Positions 2,692 to 17,456 of a DNA stretch of 18,423 bases are shown here, piece by piece. Position 1 is the first letter of the stretch. Each line of letters starts with the position of its first letter. The notes under the pieces are model-generated. The model did no database searches. It worked only from the letters and a program-made list of their open reading frames with translations, and was not told the origin of the DNA. The translations under genes and the position numbers were made by a program. Source of the stretch: Octopus sinensis (Eukaryota); NCBI RefSeq assembly GCF_006345805.1, contig NW_021824556.1:1-18423 (forward strand). The letters are read 5' to 3'.

Positions 2692-3029
2692 TATATGTTG
2701 AAAATACTTTTTAAAGTGAAGTCTGTTTTACGGCGGACCTGAAGGTTCCAATGAATTTTAAAATTCAGCTGTGAACTTATTCTTCCAGATCCACAACAGT
2801 CATTCTGATTTGAAGCTTATATAAGAGCGATATCCTGTCCATCGTCTCCAGAGCCAACTTGCGCGCTATTTTGCATTCATCCCAGACTACATCTTAGGAA
2901 CTTGTCCCGTCCCCGAATTGTTAGCCATGTTGCGGGCAGGTACAGGTACAGGTGCTTCATTTGCGCACAAGAGAAGCTTGAAAGGAAAATGTGCTGACAG
3001 GACTGTGTCGACAATACTAGAAGAAACAA

Positions 3030-5095
3030 AGGCGGCGAGCTGCCAGAAGCGTTAGCACGCCGGGCGAAATGCGTTGCCGTATTTCGTCTGTCGTTACGTT
3101 CTGAGTTCAAATTCCGCCGAGGTCGACTTTACCTTTCATCCTTTCGGGGTCGATAAATTAAGTACCAGTTACGCACTGGGGTCGATGTAATCGACTTAAT
3201 ACCTATGTCTGTCCTTGTTTGTCCCCTCTGTGTTTAGAGCCCCTTGTAGGTAGTAAAGAAATAGGTATTTTCACCTGTCGCTACGTTCTGATTTCAAATT
3301 CCGCCGAGGTTGACTTTGCCTTTCATCCTTTCGGGTCGATAAATTAAGTACCAGTTACGCACTGGGGTCGATGTAATCGACTTAATTAATCCCTTTGTCT
3401 GTCCTTGTTTGTCCCCTCTGTGTTTTAGCCCCTTGTAGGTAGTAAAGAATAGGTATTTCACCTGTCGCTACGTTCTGAGTTCAAATTCCGCCGAGGTGAC
3501 TTTGCCTTTCAATCCTTTCGGGGTCGATAAATTAAGTACAGTTACGCACTGGGGTCGATGTAATCGACTTAATCCGTTTGTCTGTCCTTGTTTGTCCCCT
3601 CTGTGTGTTTCCCCTTGGTAGGTAGTAAAGAAATAGGTATTTCACCTGTCGCTACGTTCTGAGTTCAAATTCCGCCGCCGAGGTTGACTTTGCCTTTCAT
3701 CCTTTCGGGGTCGATAAATAAGTACCAGTTACGCACTGGGGTCGATGTAATCGACTTAATACCTATGTCTGTCCTTGTTTTGTCCCCTCTGTGTGTTAGC
3801 CCCTTGTGGTAGTAAAGAAATAGGTATTTCACCTGTCGCTACGTTCTGAGTTCAAATCCTCCGCCGAGTTGACTTTGCCTTTCATCCTTTCGTCGGGTCG
3901 ATAAATTAAGTACCAGTTTACGCACTGGGGTCGATGTAATCGACTTAATCCCTTTGTCCTGTCCTTGTTTGTCCCCTCTGTGTTTAGCCCCTTGTAGGTA
4001 GTAAAGAAATAGTATTTCACACCTGTCGCTACGTTCTGAGTTCAATTCCCGCCGAGTTGACTTTGCCTTTCATCCTTTCGGGGTCGATAAATTAAGTACC
4101 AGTTACGCACTGGGGTCGATGTAATCGACTTAATCCGTTTGTCTGTCCTTGTTTGTCCCCTCTGTGTTTAGCCCCTTGTAGGTAGTAAAGAAATAGGTAT
4201 TTCACCTGTCGCTACGTTCTGAGTTCAAATTCCGCCGAGGTTGACTTTGCCTTTTATCCTTTCGGGGTCGATAAATTAAGTACCAGTTACGCACTGGGGT
4301 CGATGTAATCGACTTAATCCGTTTGTCTGTCCTTGTTTGTCCCCTCTGTGTTTAGCCCCTTGTAGGTAGTAAAGAAATAGGTATTTCACCTGTCGCTACG
4401 TTCTGAGTTCAAATTCCGCCGAGGTTGACTTTGCCTTTCATCCTTTCGGGGTCGATAAATTAAGTACCAGTTACGCACTGGGGTCGATGTAATCGACTTA
4501 ATACCTATGTCTGTCCTTGTTTGTCCCCTCTGTGTTTAGCCCCTTGTAGGTAGTAAAGAAATAGGTATTTCACCTGTCGCTACGTTCTGAGTTCAAATTC
4601 CGCCGAGGTTGACTTTGCCTTTCATCCTTTCGGGGTCGATAAATTAAGTACCAGTTACGCACTGGGGTCGATGTAATCGACTTAATCCGTTTTGTCTGTC
4701 CTTGTTTGTCCCCTCTGTTGTTAGCCCCTTGTAGGTAGTAAAGAAATAGGTATTTCACCTGTCGCTCCGTTCTGAGTTCAAAATTCCGCCGAGGTTGACT
4801 TTGCCTTTCATCCTTTCGGGGTCGATAAATTAAGTACCAGTTACGCACTGGGGTCGATGTAATCGACTTAATCCCTTTGTCTGTCCCTTGTTTGTCCCCT
4901 CTGTGTTTAGCCCCTTGTAGGTAGTAAAGAAATAGGTATTTCACCTGTCGCTACGTTCTGAGTTCAAATTCCGCCGAGGTTGACTTTGCCTTTCATCCTT
5001 TCGGGTCGGTTAATAAGTACCGTATAATCGACTTAATCCATTTGTCTATCCTTGTCCCCCTCTGTATTTAGCCCCTTGTGGGCAATAAAAAAATA
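3030..5095 (+). mobile_element. SINE family A concatemer: one full monomer plus 10 head-less ~184-bp tandem units
   Basis: 11 B-box copies (~3104, 3290, 3478, 3661, 3848, 4039, 4221, 4405, 4589, 4774, 4960), period 184 bp in clean units. One perfect 17-bp TSD AATACTAGAAGAAACAA at 3013-3029 and 5096-5112. Confidence 0.95.
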
Positions 5096-5314: not shown

Positions 5315-5752
5315 TACACAGAAAAAAAACAAGGTGAGAACCAAGGAGACAAAAAAATGCGTGTAGGAGCTAACGATCTATCATGGTGTCCTGATATATC
5401 CCATACCTGATACATACTTACAATTCAGTGAACCGTAACAATTATGCGCCTAGCCTAGGAAACACAGGGTAGTGAACTATACTTCTCTGTGGTACTAACT
5501 TTTCTTTTTGGTAACTAGACTATTGATAGTCAAGTGCTTTGGTTATAGACACAAGGACAATGAACCGTATAACAAAGCCCGTAACTATTCGTGTACAGTG
5601 TTTTCACTTCCTGTGAGTGAATGCTGAGTTTGTATTTGTTGTAGACAACAGCACATTGTTTGTGTAGGTTGTTGACAACATATGCACGCGTACACTCACA
5701 CTTAACCATTCTTACAGGCATTACAGATATACACGTGCACTGGCAAACGCAC

Positions 5753-5783
5753 CTGGCGCCTTAGACCACTCGGCCATTCTGAC
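5753..5783 (-). pseudogene. tRNA-Leu 5'-half fragment (31 nt)
   Basis: Reverse complement GTCAGAATGGCCGAGTGGTCTAAGGCGCCAG differs by one base from the metazoan tRNA-Leu(CAA) 5' end as I recall it (GTCAGGATGGCCGAGTGGTCTAAGGCGCCAG). No anticodon or 3' half. Confidence 0.75.
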
Positions 5784-5785
5784 AA

Positions 5786-6203
5786 GGCGGCGAGCTGGCA
5801 GAAACGTTAGCACGCCGGGCGAAATGCTTAGCAGTATTTCGTCTGTATTTACGTTCTGAGTTCAAATTCCGCCGAGGTCGACTTTGCCTTTCATCCTTTC
5901 GGGGGTCGATTAAATAAGTACCAGTTACGCACTGGGGTCGATATAATCGACTTAATCCATTTGTCTGTCCTTGTTTGTCCTTTCTGTGTTTAGCCCCTTG
6001 TGGGTAGTAAAGAAATAGGTATTTCGTCTGCCGCTACGTTCTGAGTTCAAATTCCTCCGAGGTCGACTTTGCCTTTCATCCTTTCGGGGGTCGATTAAAT
6101 AAGTACCAGTTACGCACTGGGGTCGATATAATCGACTTAATCCATTTGTCTGTCCTTGTTTGTCCCTTCTCTGTATTTAGCCCCTTGTGGTTAGTAAAGA
6201 AAT
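5786..6203 (+). mobile_element. SINE family A dimer (monomer plus head-less unit)
   Basis: Junction AAAGAAATAG|GTATTTC at 6018/6019. A 16-bp TSD AGATATACACG(T/C)GCAC at 5725-5740 and 6204-6219 also encloses 5741-5785. Confidence 0.93.
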
Positions 6204-6283
6204 AGATATACACGCGCACACAGGAGTTATTTGAGACAACCTCGTGACTCTCAAGTCAACGAGGAAGCCTTTAAGTGCTGCTA

Positions 6284-6809: not shown

Positions 6810-7195
6810 GTGGAGGCGCAATGGCCCAGTGGTTAGGGAAGCGGACTCGCGGTCGTAGGATCGCGGTTTCGATTCCCAGACCGGGCGTTGTGAGTGTTTA
6901 TTGAGCGAAAACACCGAAAGCTCCACGAAGCTCCGGCAGGGGATGGTGGTGGTCCCTGCTGTACTCTTTCACCACAACTTTCTCTCACTCTTACTTCCTG
7001 TTTCTGTTGTACCTGTATTTCAAAGGGCCGGCCTTGACACTCTCTATGTCACGCTGAATATCCCCGAGAACTACGTTAAGGGTACACGTGTCTGTGGAGT
7101 GCTCAGCCACTTACACGTTAATTTCACGAGCAGGCTGTTCCGTTGATTCGGATCAACCGGAACCCTCGTCGTCGTAACCGACGGAGTGCTTCCCC
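6810..7195 (+). mobile_element. tRNA-derived SINE family C, tail type 1, full length
   Basis: A-box TGGCCCAGTGG, B-box GGTTTCGATTCC. 11-bp TSD ACTGTAGTAGA at 6799-6809 and 7196-7206. Near-identical to 16429-16816. Confidence 0.95.
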
Positions 7196-7893: not shown

Positions 7894-8229
7894 ACCACAC
7901 ACACACACACACACACCACACACACACACACACAAGATGTGCCTGAACAGGCACTAGTATCACGATTAGCCAGTCAGCTTGTTAAAATATATTTTAGCGA
8001 CAGAGGCAGTATTCATAGCGAGAAACTGGAGTTGGTGGGGACTTATCTCACCGCTCACGATATAAACAAGCGTGCATTTTGCACCAAAAGCCTAAATGTG
8101 AGTTTCTCTCGTGGTATCTATCACAGTATAGTCTGTTCTAACAGAACAACCACGTTTAAGTGGGAATAAATATTACCTCTCGGTATTACTACAGCTTCTG
8201 TCGCTAATATATACTTCCTCCATAGATCA

Positions 8230-8445
8230 TGACAGATCTGACCCTCCTCTTTGGTTCTACTGAAGGGTGGCTCTCTCAGCTCTCTGCATATGCGTGCATA
8301 GCATGTGGCTGAATATCTTCCACCGTCACGCGGTGATGAAACCCCAAAAAGGTACTCATCCCGGTTTTTTTCTGTGACTTCTTCGTACGTGATGTAATCA
8401 CACCAACAAATTCTTAATATAGCCTTATGACAACTGTAGTCCAAC
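8230..8445 (-). pseudogene. Degraded RTE-clade LINE ORF fragment (post-RT region)
   Basis: CHKAILRICWCDYITYEEV resembles the RTE motif CLRRIL.I.W.D.ITNEEV; another frame gives ITA*RWKIFSHML, like RR..W.GH.LR. Confidence 0.6.
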
Positions 8446-8499
8446 AAATTCTTTTGGGGTTTTTTTCCCTACGTTTCACAAGAATCTTTTATCTGTTAT

Positions 8500-9060
8500 T
8501 AGTTTCAGGCATTAAACTGCGGCTATGCTGGAGCACCGCTTCGAAGGGTATAGTTGAACAAGTCTGCCTAAGGACTTACTTCTAAGTCTGGTGCTTATTC
8601 TTAGTTCTTTGCTGCCCACAAGGGGCTAAACACAGAGGGGACAAACGAGGACAGACAAACGGATTAAGTCGATTATATCGACCCCAGTGCGTAACTGGTA
8701 CTTGTTTAATCGACCCCGAAAGGATGAAAGGCAAAGTCGACCTCGGCGGAATTTGAACTTAGAACGTAACGGCAGACGAAATACGTATTTCTTTACTGCC
8801 CACAAGGGGCTAAACACAGAGAGGACAAACAAGGACAGACAACGGATTAAGTCGATTATATCGACCCCAGTGCGTAACTGGTACTTGTTTAATCGACCCT
8901 GAAAGGATGAAAGGCAAAGTCGACCTCGGCGGAATTTGAACTCAGAACGTAACGGCAGACGAAATACAGCTCGTCGGCAAGAGAGCCCTGGTGCTTATTC
9001 TGTCGGCTTTTGACGAACTGCAAAGTTAAGGGGACGCAAAGAAAGTAACATGGTGTTTTT
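8500..9060 (-). mobile_element. Old family-B-like 3' portion, split by a SINE A insertion
   Basis: CTGCGGCTATGCTGGAGCACCGC and GGTGCTTATTCTGTCGG..GGGGACG match the B tail; interrupted at 8602-8987. Confidence 0.65.
8602..8987 (-). mobile_element. SINE family A dimer
   Basis: Two units joined at the palindrome GAAATACGTATTTC (8778-8791). 14-bp TSD CTGGTGCTTATTCT at 8588-8601 and 8988-9001. Head partly deleted. Confidence 0.93.
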
Positions 9061-10542: not shown

Positions 10543-10796
10543 ATGTTGTTGTTTGTTCTTTCGTGCCATGCCTGGCTCATAAGACCCAGATTCCCGTTTT
10601 CATTGGCGTATAGGTTCCCCACCTGGACGGGACGCCGGTCCGTCGCAGGTGAGCTGTAAGATGCAGGAGGAAAGAGTGAGAGAAAGTTGTGGCGAAAGAG
10701 TCAGCAGAAGTTCGCCATTACCTTCTGCCGGAGCCGTGTGTGGCTTAGGTGTTTCGCTCATAAACACAGGCATCGCCCGGTCTGAGATTCGAACCG
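10543..10796 (-). mobile_element. SINE family C relative, tail type 2, 5'-truncated
   Basis: B-box GGTTCGAATC and shared body up to CAACTTTCTCTCACTCTT, then a different tail ending in (AAC)n. Confidence 0.8.
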
Positions 10797-11464
10797 ACCA
10801 CGCATTAACATTGCCAGAACCTCGGACCCTACACTGCGAAAATGTTTTGCTGTTTCTATCAAAGTTGCCCTCAGTAGCTGCCCATCCTCCTCTACTGAAA
10901 GTAGGTGGAATTATATCAGGGAAGCTTTGTATACAAACATCAATAGGTACTTTCAGCTTGAGTGAAAAGCAAAACCCAGATTGGTTCAGTGCTGGACTCT
11001 CAGAGCTGGAACCAGTTATCGAAGCAAAGCGCGCAGCTCTGATGCAATACAAGAGTGATTCTTCTACAAAGTCACTCGAAGAACTCAGAAATGCAAGAAA
11101 TAAAACCCAACTGACTGCCAGACGCTGTGCAAATAGGTATTGGCAGAAAATCTGTCAGACTATCCAGTCAGCTGCTGAAAGTGGCGACACCTGTGGGATG
11201 TATGCCGGTTTGAAGAGGGCCTCGGTTCATCCGCAACCAAGTCAGCCACTCTGAAATCAATTACTGGAGATCTCATCAAGGACCAAAGTAGGCAAATGGA
11301 TAGATGGGTGGAGTACTACTAGGATCTCTACTCACGGGAGACCACGGTAGCTGAGGCTGCAATCGAGGGTGTCAAGATCTTGCAGCCATGTGCGAACTTG
11401 ACAGTCTGCCGTCTATAGCAGAGCTCACCAAGACTAATCTCTCCCTAGCCAGTGGCAAATCCCT
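10795..11464 (+). pseudogene. RTE-clade LINE ORF fragment (between endonuclease and RT)
   Basis: RPRINIART..RWNYIREALY / QNPDWF..LEPVIEAKRAAL..ARRCANRYWQ..GMYAGLKRA / LKSITGDLIKDQSRQMDRWVEYY*DLYSRE..ELD..P..EL..LASGK, with frameshifts and a stop. Confidence 0.88.
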
Positions 11465-12597: not shown

Positions 12598-13245
12598 TAT
12601 GTATATTGGCATCCTTTTTGTCCCGGAGACAATGGAGTTGCGCCAAAATTCTAGTCCGGTTTTTACATTTCATGTCCTTATACATTTCCTGCTGTGGCTG
12701 TGTAGTCCTATCCTGGACAAACGCTCACTCTGGCAGGTGCCGCAAATATAGCGAAGACTGTTCCTGGCTGGTTGTAATATCATAGTTTCTTGTTGATGTC
12801 TTTTCTTGTCTTTCCATTTCTCCTCTCTTTCTCTGTCACTCCTTTGTGTTCCCTCTTCTATTGTACGTCGCCAATCTCCACGGTTGCTGGCAACTGCTTC
12901 CAAGTTGCTAATATTGATGTCGGCATGCCTTCATGTCCCTTTTGCAAACATCCTTGTATCGTAAGAACTGCCTTCCCACAGACCTAGTGCCCCTAGCAAG
13001 CTCGCCGTAGAGCATGTCCTTGGGGATTCTGCCATCCTCCATACGACTAACATATCCAAGCCATCTCATACGTCTTTGTGTGAGGAGTGCAAACATGCTT
13101 GGTATTCCCGCTTGCTTGAGGACATCTTTGTCGGGGGCATGATTCTGCAATTTGATGCCAAAGATTTTCCAGAGGCAGCGCAGGTGAAAGATATTTAGGC
13201 GACGCTCTTGGCGTGGGTATGGCGTCCATGTCTCAATGCCATATA
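12572..13245 (-). mobile_element. 5'-truncated RTE-clade LINE 3' end with 3'UTR and (TACA)n tail
   Basis: YGIETWT..RLNIFHLRCL..RRMRWLGYVSRMEDGRIPKDMLYGEL..R..GR..LRYKDVCKRDMK, then C-terminal YICGTC..SRIGLHSHSRKC. Short 3'UTR CCATTGTCTCCGGGACAAAAAGGATGCCAA, then microsatellite tail. Confidence 0.92.
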
Positions 13246-13724
13246 TCTTGTTCTTGGACACTCGCAAAGCTTGAAGAAAGTATCAAAAATACTTGTTCGA
13301 ACGACAAGAAATATAGATTTCTAACATCGACGAGTGACTATACATAGTTTCTTGTTATAGGGAAAGGGATCAAGATTATTATAATAATCTTCACTGACTT
13401 CCAATCTCTCTGTGTTGACTGATGTTATTTCATCGACATCTGGGAAGATGGACTGCAATATTGATCTTGATGGAATTAGAAATGAGAACTATTTAGAGAA
13501 GTATTTATAATTGAGAAGCATTTCTTTTTTGTGATATTTTATCGAATCAGTCATTTTGGTACCTGAGAATTCTCTAAAAATAAATGTTTGGTTTTTAAAG
13601 AAATAAAAAGAAAAATTAGAGAAAGACATTGGCAATCATAATAAATCATTTTATTTCAATATTAACATAGGGACCAGGCCACATTTTTGTTGATGTGTGT
13701 ATGTAGGAATATACTCCATTATAT

Positions 13725-15648: not shown

Positions 15649-15951
15649 TCACCGTGACCGACCAGGCTATCAGATGTTGCTACGTATCGCTGGTCACAAT
15701 GCGCTTCACATTGTTTTAGCCTTCAAATGACGCCACTCCGCTGGCTAAGCGAGCAGGTCAACAGAAGAAAGAGTGAGAGAAAGTTGTGGCGAAAGAGTAC
15801 AGCAGGGATCACCACCACCCCCTGCCGGAGCCTCGTGGAGCTTTAGGTGTTTTCGCTCAGTAAACATTCACAACGCCCGGTCTGGGAATCGAAACCGCGA
15901 TCCTACGACCACGAGTCCGCTGCCCTAACCACTGGGCCATTGCGCCTCCAC
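15649..15951 (-). mobile_element. SINE family C, tail type 3
   Basis: Head and body near-identical to 6810-6992 and 16429-16612; unrelated tail at 15649-15765 ending in (TA)n. Confidence 0.92.
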
Positions 15952-16428: not shown

Positions 16429-16816
16429 GTGGAGGCGCAATGGCCCAGTGGTTAGGGCAGCGGACTCGCGGTCGTAGGATCGCAGTTTCGATTCCCAGAC
16501 CGGGCGTTGTGAGTGTTTATTGAGCGAAAACACCTAAAAGCTCCACGACGCTCCGGCAGGGGATGGTGGTGATCCCTGCTGTACTCTTTCACCACAACTT
16601 TCTCTCACTCTTACTTCCTGTTTCTGTTGTACCTGTATTTCAAAGGGCCGGCCTTGTCACTCTCTGTGTCACGCTGAATATCCCCGAGAAGTACGTTAAG
16701 GGTACACATGTCTGTGGAGTGCTCAGCCACTTACACGTTAATTTCACGAGCAGGCTGTTCCGTTGATCGGATCAACCGGAACCCTCATCGTCGTAACCGA
16801 CGGAGTGCTTCCATCC
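16429..16816 (+). mobile_element. SINE family C, tail type 1, full length
   Basis: Perfect 12-bp TSD ATCAAGAAGATT at 16417-16428 and 16817-16828. Confidence 0.95.
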
Positions 16817-16852: not shown

Positions 16853-17069
16853 TTCTTTTGTATTCTAGGCACAAGGCCCGAAATTTCGTTGGGGGCTGGT
16901 CGTTTAGATCGATTCCAGTACGAAACTGGTACTTAATTTATCGACCCTGAAAGGATGAAATGTAAAGACGACCTTGGCGGAATTTGAACTCAGAACGTAA
17001 AGACAAACGAAATATCGCTAATATCGAAATTTCACACGGGGTGCTAAAGGTTCTTCCAGCTCACCTCCT
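16853..17069 (-). mobile_element. Older SINE family A relative with an alternative 3' tail
   Basis: Head and body align to family A; the tail (plus strand TAGGCACAAGGCCCGAAATTT) differs from the TGTCTGTCCTTG..AGCCCCTTG tail. Confidence 0.8.
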
Positions 17070-17122
17070 TTGGAGGACTTATATTCACATATAAAATATA
17101 AAGTGAAGAGAAAATTTGTGAA

Positions 17123-17456
17123 GACGGCGAGATGGCGGAAACGTTAGCACGCCGGGCGAAATGCTTAGCAGTGTTTCGTCTGCCGTTACGTTCTGAGTTC
17201 AAATTCCGCCGAAGTCGACTTTGCCTTTCATCCTTTAGAGATCGATAAACTAAGTACTAGTTACGCACTGGGGTCGATATAATCGACTTAATCCGTTTGT
17301 CTGTCCTTGTTTGTCCTCTCTGTGGGTAGTAAAGAAATAGGTATTTCGTCTGTCTTTACGTTCTGAGTTCAAATTCCGCCGAGGTCGACGTTTCCTTTCG
17401 TCCTTTCGAGGTCGATAAATTAGATCGACCACCAGTACGCAGCTGGTACTTAATTT
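17123..17456 (+). mobile_element. SINE family A dimer, second unit truncated with a short inverted piece
   Basis: Junction AAAGAAATAG|GTATTTC at 17340/17341; 17419-17456 is the reverse complement of the next body segment. Confidence 0.88.

What the first reader, a model, noticed from the sequence alone, without database searches (positions are those of the whole stretch)
5725..6219. Antisense tRNA-Leu 5' half co-inserted with a SINE dimer inside one TSD
Seen: a 16-bp TSD (1 mismatch at a CpG) encloses 12 unassigned nt, a 31-nt tRNA-Leu-like 5' fragment in antisense (5753-5783), AA, then the SINE dimer head-to-head. The fragment starts at the mature tRNA 5' end and stops before the anticodon loop, like a 5' tRNA half. 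Inference: the second target strand primed reverse transcription on a tRNA fragment (twin priming in trans), a fossil of tRNA halves in the retrotransposition complex.
Basis: partly seen in the sequence, partly recalled or inferred. Interest (0 to 1): 0.7.

Follow-up and report, generated by a model that had tools for sequence, protein, structure and literature searches.

The report
Broken pre-tRNA co-inserted backwards with SINE
A jumping repeat sits here head-to-head with a 44-base piece of a broken tRNA-leucine copy (anticodon deleted, intron remnant kept) rather than a normal tRNA half, and the two were likely reverse-copied into the same DNA break in one event, a process already described for mammalian LINE-1.

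Summary
The anatomy is real, but the RNA was misnamed. A 16-bp TSD encloses an antisense tRNA-Leu-like piece and a full-length SINE dimer. The piece is 43-44 nt, not 31. The 12 "unassigned" bases continue into a variant of intron-containing pre-tRNA-Leu(CAA) that lacks 18 nt, including the anticodon loop: 41/44 ungapped, against 2-4/13 for genes or spliced tRNA over the last 13 nt. AA is the SINE's usual 5' start.

I found 17 copies of this variant in the genome. Seven are 5'-only pieces ending at nt 43-49. Four of the seven sit head-to-head with another element; TSD clear in 2, weak in 1, not found in 1. Eight others are fused in sense to repeats. One decayed copy lies in a tRNA-Leu gene array.

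Best reading: twin priming in trans on the RNA of this anticodon-less pre-tRNA (0.72). Antisense small-RNA/L1 chimeras, tRNA halves included, are already published for mammals. What differs here: a SINE partner, a probably cephalopod genome and a defective pre-tRNA as template. The empty site and the RNA itself were not seen.

The parts
5725..5740 (+). Left target-site duplication (16 bp); its last base is shared with the captured piece (1-nt microhomology)
   Evidence: alleles in other runs
   Evidence: 10/13 to L020, L024, L079; 2-4/13 to intact or spliced tRNA; alignment; 11/13 with the 5744 allele of X1, X2, X5
5753..5783 (-). nt 1-31 of the captured piece: tRNA-Leu(CAA) 5' exon from +1, with the variant's A at position 6
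   Evidence: all 3 exact A6 hits continue into the deletion junction, all 14 G6 hits continue into the anticodon loop
5784..5833 (+). SINE 5' head, including the AA that this family usually starts with
   Evidence: 45,951 exact 15-mer heads in G000
5834..6203 (+). Two tandem 185-nt SINE body units (94.6% alike), ending at the family's 3' end with 2-nt microhomology to the TSD; at most 94.1% to any other copy in the window, so not a copy of the local array
6204..6219 (+). Right target-site duplication

Best explanation
One 16-bp TSD encloses a full-length SINE dimer joined head-to-head to the first 43-44 nt of an anticodon-loop-deleted, intron-retaining pre-tRNA-Leu(CAA) variant, and the two were likely written in one retrotransposition event by twin priming in trans. 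SHOWN: the anatomy; the identity of the template; the 17-copy family; repeated 3' endpoints at nt 43-49; repeated head-to-head joints. INFERRED: a LINE enzyme (not identified) made a staggered cut. One free 3' end primed reverse transcription at the SINE RNA 3' end (2-nt microhomology). The other primed on the variant RNA near nt 44 (1-nt microhomology) and copied it to its 5' end at +1. The two cDNAs were joined 5' to 5' and the gaps filled, which gave the TSD. Which end primed first cannot be told. INFERRED: the RNA came from a deletion allele in the tRNA-Leu(CAA) array on C27. Without its anticodon loop it would not splice normally and would stay in the nucleus, which would make it frequent cargo. 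Whether nt 43-49 is a cut end or an internal priming site is open; I favour internal priming, since ends vary over 7 nt and most overlap the flank by 1-2 nt.
For: (1) Template identity: 41/44 ungapped to L020, the best of 25 loci compared; intact genes score 40-41 against 73; clean 18-nt gap in the alignment. (2) Recurrence: 7 of 17 variant copies are 5'-only pieces ending at nt 43-49. Four are head-to-head with another sequence: the window (16-bp TSD); L008 (12-bp TSD, 3' end of a (GAT)n-tailed element); L023 ((GAT)n-tailed element, TSD not found); L032 (12-bp low-complexity TSD, local repeat copy). The partners all differ, so these are separate events. (3) RNA and RT marks: L021 and L024 end at nt 44 and carry (ATG)n tails; L008 has two short extra copies of the tRNA 5' end at the joint, like repeated template jumps; 3 of 4 head-to-head pieces begin exactly at +1 and none has the 6-nt leader, while 4 of 5 sense copies with an intact 5' end have it (post hoc Fisher p=0.048). 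(4) Pre-tRNAs are retro-cargo in this genome: 8 of 9 sense, non-array variant copies run through the trailer (or, in L028, its remnant) into a repeat; L185 and L190 are intron-less yet keep the trailer and are fused to a repeat tail. (5) Chance adjacency of a SINE head to +1 of any of 17 copies in this orientation is about 1.4e-4 (hand arithmetic; ignores target bias). (6) Precedent: PMC4476161 (U5/L1, passages); PMC13174262 and its preprint (tRNA/L1, passages).
Against: No empty allele was seen, so co-insertion rests on the TSD. Contigs from other samples join flank to fragment but stop at 5780 and do not bridge into the SINE. No intact source gene was found: the array copy L026 has G6 and C16 and a different leader, so it is not the direct template. 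No RNA evidence was obtained. The window piece differs from the closest copy at 3 of its last 13 nt (2 in the allele of three other runs). Priming microhomology is only 1 nt. A T at -1 in the three +1 cases fits a leader base as well as a non-templated A, so 'RNase P-processed 5' end' is not shown. In L032 the partner is a 97-nt copy of a repeat 900 bp away, joined through a 5-nt overlap, so DNA-templated jumps do occur at such joints. TSDs are clear in only 2 of 4 head-to-head cases. The predicted fold of the variant is ambiguous around nt 37-49.
Confidence: 0.72

Rival explanations
1. DNA-templated filler: while the SINE's 5' joint was being resolved, a polymerase (RT or a repair enzyme) copied 44 nt from a genomic copy of the variant, with no second RNA involved.
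For: L032 shows a locally templated 97-nt piece next to the same fragment. The -1 base matches the gene's leader in 3 of 3 +1 cases. No RNA evidence was obtained.
Against: Only 17 copies were found in 2.7 Gb, yet the same 5' piece recurs at 4 head-to-head joints and as 3 stand-alone pieces with the same start and end zone. None carries more than 1-2 nt of upstream flank. (ATG)n tails and stuttered 5' ends fit RT on an RNA.
Confidence: 0.13
2. Two sequential insertions: a tailless retrocopy of the variant made the TSD, and the SINE later landed exactly at its 5' end (or the reverse order).
For: Stand-alone 5' pieces exist (L021, L024, L077). SINE heads are dense (45,951 exact 15-mers). L021 looks like two separate neighbouring insertions.
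Against: No second TSD: nothing from the fragment's 5' end is repeated after the SINE, whose 3' end abuts the right TSD. Chance adjacency is about 1.4e-4 by hand arithmetic.
Confidence: 0.06
3. Pre-formed composite RNA: a transcript from a locus that already had fragment and SINE head-to-head was retrotransposed as one unit.
For: It would also give one TSD, with a single priming event.
Against: No second copy of this joint: 1 of 10 hits and 0 of 6 is a true tRNA 5' end by eye, and that one is the window. The other three head-to-head cases have different partners.
Confidence: 0.05
4. One reading: the second strand primed on a mature tRNA-Leu 5' half cut before the anticodon loop, with 12 non-templated or unrelated bases added.
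For: Start at +1; 30/31 identity to real genes; published tRNA/L1 chimeras are mostly half-length and antisense.
Against: A6 and the next 13 nt both match the deletion variant (10/13, P 1.3e-4) and not spliced tRNA (4/13). All 3 exact A6 hits of the 31-mer are variant copies. A different degenerate Leu-like copy, L076, needs a 4-nt gap and scores 54 against 73.
Confidence: 0.03

Closest known systems
Antisense tRNA/LINE-1 chimeric insertions (PMC13174262, Cell Genomics 2026; preprint 10.1101/2025.02.02.635956; passages read)
   Same: tRNA 5' portion from about +1, antisense to the retroelement, inside one TSD; the authors propose twin priming. The preprint reports 21 loci, with TSDs of 9-19 bp in 8 of 8 checked.
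   Different: There the partner is L1 itself and the piece is described as half-length (1-37 nt), matching tRNA halves. Here the partner is a full-length SINE dimer and the piece is 43-44 nt of an unspliced, anticodon-deleted variant. I did not read their supplementary locus table, which could include intron-containing tRNAs.
Twin-priming U5/L1, U1/L1, U2/L1 chimeras (PMC4476161; passages read)
   Same: 3'-truncated small nuclear RNA in opposite orientation within a TSD, truncations clustered in one region (U5 positions 36-48), junction complementarity, internal priming proposed. This is the closest mechanistic match.
   Different: snRNA template, mammalian L1 machinery. Here a defective pre-tRNA and an unidentified LINE.
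Tailless retropseudogenes (PMC5322556; passages read)
   Same: 3'-truncated tRNA copies, processed or unprocessed, ending at defined positions and attributed to internal priming; resembles L077 and L006.
   Different: They stand alone and, by that paper, depend on L1. The window's piece is co-inserted, and L021 and L024 carry (ATG)n tails.
U6/L1-type sense chimeras (template switch or RNA ligation; PMC4476161, PMC13174262 passages)
   Same: The same variant, and intact pre-tRNA-Leu(CAA) and pre-tRNA-Lys(TTT), are fused in sense through their oligo-T trailer to repeats.
   Different: The window is the opposite-orientation class, not this one.

Membership tests
Twin-priming small-RNA/retroelement chimera | Both parts inside one TSD, no internal second TSD | tested here: met
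   16-bp TSD, 15/16 here, 5736 mismatch absent in 4 of 4 other runs; no second TSD
Twin-priming small-RNA/retroelement chimera | Opposite orientation, 5' ends joined | tested here: met
Twin-priming small-RNA/retroelement chimera | Small RNA 3'-truncated at a recurrent position with microhomology to the target end | tested here: inconclusive
   Ends at nt 43-49 in 7 of 7 5'-only copies; microhomology only 1 nt here, 2 nt in L008
Twin-priming small-RNA/retroelement chimera | Empty orthologous site lacks both parts | tested here: inconclusive
   No empty allele among the rows shown for 8 runs; 1378 joints were not shown
Twin-priming small-RNA/retroelement chimera | Endonuclease signature of the driving LINE at the target | not tested
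   The LINE partner of this SINE was not identified
Mature 5' tRNA half (about 30-40 nt, cut in the anticodon loop) | Sequence of a mature, spliced tRNA ending at or in the anticodon loop | tested here: not met
   43-44 nt, anticodon loop deleted, continues into intron remnant; 4/13 to spliced tRNA against 10/13 to the variant
Mature 5' tRNA half (about 30-40 nt, cut in the anticodon loop) | Fragment present as a discrete small RNA | not testable with these tools
   No small-RNA raw-read run was offered
SINE family (for the 17-copy variant) | Copies share one head-body-tail unit from a composite master | tested here: not met
   Sense copies are fused to at least four different repeats, by eye; only head and trailer are shared
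SINE family (for the 17-copy variant) | Internal Pol III A and B boxes and oligo-T end; dispersed copies with TSDs | tested here: inconclusive
   D- and T-arm sequences and T-run kept; clear TSDs for 2 of 9 non-array sense copies (L020, L027); transcription not shown
Functional tRNA-Leu(CAA) gene (for the variant) | Anticodon loop with CAA | tested here: not met
   The 18-nt deletion removes it; ARAGORN finds nothing in 4 of 6 variants and a spurious Ile call in 2

The most novel reading that the evidence does not exclude
A tRNA-Leu(CAA) array allele that lost its anticodon loop made an unspliceable nuclear RNA that became favoured cargo of several LINE machineries over a long time (at least three sequence subtypes; one copy, L032-like, is shared with run X9 of another organism label). 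It left 16 retrocopies from perhaps one or a few source loci, against about 12 from more than 20 intact genes. It is captured in all modes: sense fusion at the oligo-U end, tailed 5' pieces and antisense twin priming. That would be a SINE head caught before it gained a fixed tail, and evidence that misprocessed pre-tRNAs, not cytoplasmic tRNA halves, feed second-strand priming, a possibility worth re-checking in the mammalian tRNA/L1 set.
Probability: 0.3. Interest if true: 0.6.

Novelty: new variant of a known kind. Interest (0 to 1): 0.38.

Why it matters
The mechanism is published for mammalian L1, so this locus alone is not a surprise. It adds three things. It extends twin priming in trans to a SINE insertion in what looks like a cephalopod genome (organism type recalled from the SINE sequences, not determined by a call). 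It shows the captured RNA can be an unspliced, defective pre-tRNA, which points to recruitment in the nucleus at the target site. It gives a small, traceable family for asking whether second-strand priming uses cut RNA ends or internal loops, and how tRNA-derived SINE heads get started.

Tried and rejected
ARAGORN found no tRNA in the window or in 17 loci without the intron option. With introns it found 15 genes in the C27 array but misread the anticodon. Rfam gave only microsatellite-driven hits below threshold and no tRNA hit at the fragment.

Empty site: no second copy of the left flank in G000. No RNA holder listed. No joint skipping the insert among 15 rows shown, 1378 hidden. No loose end at 5740. 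X4, X9, X8 and X20 had no cover of the unique left flank. All this is uninformative, not negative. The two RNA-guess runs laid nothing and say nothing on expression.

Local copying of the SINE dimer from the array at 3029-5095: rejected, 91.6% or less to it.

The 12 nt read as a CCA-added end, a primer-binding site, or a decayed SINE head: considered by eye and dropped, since each needs gaps or coincidence while the variant fits without gaps. L076 as template: rejected. Splice-site cleavage as the source of the 3' end: the gene's 5' exon ends at nt 38, not 43-49.

Hidden large array of identical source genes: no sign. In X2 the exact 33-nt piece has depth 158.8 against 42 for the flank, in line with 3 exact copies; contig depth is a poor copy number.

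Other tRNAs at this SINE's head: two A-box patterns gave 16 hits among 45,951 exact heads, and only the window's is a real tRNA 5' end by eye. The patterns miss truncated or mutated SINEs and many tRNAs.

tRNA-Lys(TTT) control: 26 of 94 hits examined, 23 had the 3' half, 3 were 5'-only, none head-to-head within a TSD. The control was confounded by intron-containing Lys genes and is not a matched sample.

L029 was dropped as a chance match. L032 was first taken for a retroelement partner, then found to be a local repeat copy. Earlier-findings look-ups returned nothing. Pfam found nothing in three ORF fragments elsewhere in the window.

Full report
SETTING. The window is the whole of contig C1027 of G000, a 2.72-Gb genome. 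Its SINEs look cephalopod-like; that label is recalled and comes from no call. The stretch 5725-6219 reads: TSD, an antisense tRNA-like piece, a SINE head, two 185-nt SINE units, TSD.

THE TSD. The copies at 5725-5740 and 6204-6219 match at 15 of 16. No shuffle of the two junction regions reached this (0 of 2000); 26 of 2000 random window pairs did, in a window full of arrays and microsatellites. Single contigs from four runs of four studies (X1, X2, X3, X5) run from the unique left flank through the TSD to 5780. All four read C at 5736, which removes the mismatch. Three (X1, X2, X5) also differ at 5729 and 5744. These contigs stop before the SINE, so they confirm flank-to-fragment linkage only. 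No empty allele was seen, and the outputs were too swamped or too thin to exclude one.

WHAT THE PIECE IS. An exact search for the 31-mer with either purine at position 6 gave 17 hits. Fourteen have G6 and continue into the anticodon loop and an intron; these are tRNA-Leu(CAA) genes and copies (the in-script spliced L012 is called Leu(caa)). Three have A6 (the window, L008, L016), and all three skip the anticodon loop. The alignment shows a clean 18-nt deletion that removes the loop and the first part of the intron. The 13 nt after the 31-mer match the variant at 10/13 without gaps (chance 1.3e-4), three intact copies at 2-3/13 and spliced tRNA at 4/13. The 5744 allele of three runs raises this to 11/13. 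Over 44 nt the best of 25 loci is L020 (= L016), 41/44. So the piece is the first 43-44 nt of a defective, intron-retaining pre-tRNA, not a mature half. The AA belongs to the SINE start: 6 of 7 heads in the window and 16 of 16.

THE FAMILY. A junction pattern gave 15 hits (reversed control 0), 14 real and one chance match dropped (L029). Searches added L077, L079 and L080: 17 copies, a lower bound. Classes, read by eye:
(a) 1 decayed copy inside the C27 tRNA-Leu(CAA) array (L026; 15 genes there), with array-type upstream flank but G6 and C16.
(b) 9 sense copies with the 3' half or part of it. Eight run through the trailer or its remnant into a repeat: SINE heads, a (GAT)n-tailed element, or short repeat tails of two subtypes. 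Clear TSDs were found for L020 and L027 only.
(c) 7 copies that are 5'-only and end at nt 43-49. Two stand alone with (ATG)n tails, both from nt 44 (L021, L024). One has no partner or TSD found (L077). Four are head-to-head with another sequence: the window; L008 (12-bp TSD, about 60 nt of the 3' end of a (GAT)n-tailed element, two stuttered copies of the tRNA 5' end at the joint); L023 (same kind of partner, no clean TSD); L032 (12-bp low-complexity TSD; the partner is a 97-nt copy, 91% alike, of a repeat about 900 bp away, joined through a 5-nt overlap).
The name RTE for (GAT)n-tailed elements is recalled and untested; PMC9115989 (passages) reports a transcribed RTE LINE in Octopus, but I did not compare sequences.

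CONTEXT. Intact pre-tRNA-Leu(CAA) copies are also fused to repeats: L004, L017, L061, L074, L078, L081, L082 and L083 keep the intron, while L185 and L190 lack it yet keep the trailer. The last two show an RNA intermediate. L005 and L006 are 3'-truncated intact-type copies without a partner found. Intron-containing pre-tRNA-Lys(TTT) copies fuse in sense the same way; of 26 examined (of 94 hits) 3 were 5'-only and none was head-to-head in a TSD. At exact heads of the window's SINE (45,951), two A-box patterns found one true tRNA 5' end, the window's, among 16 hits. The event is rare, and within these limited searches it was seen only for the variant.

MECHANISM. The SINE ends at its family 3' end flush with the right TSD, sharing 2 nt, and is not a copy of the local array, as expected for target-primed reverse transcription. 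The piece abuts the left TSD with 1 shared nt and runs to +1, where it meets the SINE's 5' end. One TSD and opposite orientation are the marks of twin priming as defined in PMC4476161 and PMC13174262. RNA as template is favoured by the fixed start and end zone across separate events, the (ATG)n tails, the stutter in L008 and the lack of upstream flank. The leader is absent in 4 of 4 head-to-head pieces and present in 4 of 5 sense copies (post hoc p=0.048); the -1 base is ambiguous. In the intact pre-tRNA the corresponding intron segment is predicted unpaired; in the variant the fold is ambiguous. Against this stand the missing empty site, the missing intact source gene, no RNA data, and L032, which shows DNA-templated jumps at such joints. 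I put twin priming on the variant RNA at 0.72, DNA filler at 0.13, sequential insertion at 0.06, a composite transcript at 0.05 and a mature half at 0.03.

WHAT IS KNOWN. Passages of the preprint 10.1101/2025.02.02.635956 report 21 tRNA/L1 chimeras, mostly half-length and antisense, ascribed to twin priming; passages of the journal version PMC13174262 repeat the half-length, antisense and twin-priming statements. Passages of PMC4476161 describe antisense, 3'-truncated U5, U1, U2 and U6 copies with L1 or SVA, with internal priming in a loop. Passages of PMC5322556 describe tailless retropseudogenes and favour internal priming. PMC6007223 (passages) added nothing used here. Five library searches (titles and abstract starts of 25, 20, 15, 3 and 15 listed papers) showed no title on such chimeras in a mollusc or with a defective pre-tRNA. 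The library lacks most subscription papers, and no supplements were read; the locus table of PMC13174262 could bear on the template question.

VERDICT. New variant of a known kind; interest 0.38. The bolder reading, that a misprocessed anticodon-less pre-tRNA acts as favoured cargo and a proto-SINE head, has probability about 0.3 and would merit 0.6.

Noticed in passing
window 3029-5095: One SINE head followed by about 10.5 tandem 184-nt body units: a SINE-derived tandem array. Dimers also lie at 5784-6203 and 8602-8971.
   Followed up: partly
L185 (C2:8192695) and L190 (C28:979905): tRNA-Leu(CAA) retrocopies with the intron removed but the 3' trailer kept (L185 also has the array-type leader), fused to a repeat tail; this suggests splicing can precede end-processing here.
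   Followed up: partly
G000 C6:34.5-35.0 Mb and C10:21.9-22.0 Mb (L162-L164 and hits): Large clusters of tRNA-Lys(TTT)-like hits; the three C6 loci read carry an intron, and many dispersed intron-keeping copies are fused to repeats. The C10 cluster was not read.
   Followed up: partly
L016:1470-1860 (C1750): Whole variant with leader and trailer fused in sense to a full SINE inside a TSD of about 19 bp, itself inserted at the end of an older SINE: a U6/L1-like chimera with the same SINE family as the window.
   Followed up: partly
L008:1420-1560 (C20): Two short imperfect repeats of the tRNA 5' end lie between the antisense fragment and the (GAT)n-tailed element, like repeated RT jumps at the template end.
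   Followed up: partly
L032:1475-1640 (C26): Antisense variant piece joined to a 97-nt copy of a repeat 900 bp away; run X9 of another organism label shows a matching flank, so it may be an older event.
   Followed up: partly
L069 (C1:185134062): A second, different deletion of the anticodon region in a pre-tRNA-Leu(CAA) retrocopy fused to a repeat tail.
   Followed up: no
L085, L087, L088, L092, L093: The same joint between this SINE and another tRNA-derived repeat recurs on several contigs, probably a segmental duplication or satellite unit.
   Followed up: no
window 16899-17070 (-) and 17121-17422 (+): Two SINE copies head-to-head about 50 nt apart; not checked for a shared TSD.
   Followed up: no
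window 6917-7147 and 16537-16767; 15764-15951: A 231-nt repeat at 97% identity, with an inverted copy of an overlapping stretch: a young repeat family not examined.
   Followed up: no
window 8121-8468 (-), 10583-11254 (+), 12908-13282 (-): Open frames that resemble decayed LINE ORF pieces by recall; Pfam found nothing.
   Followed up: partly
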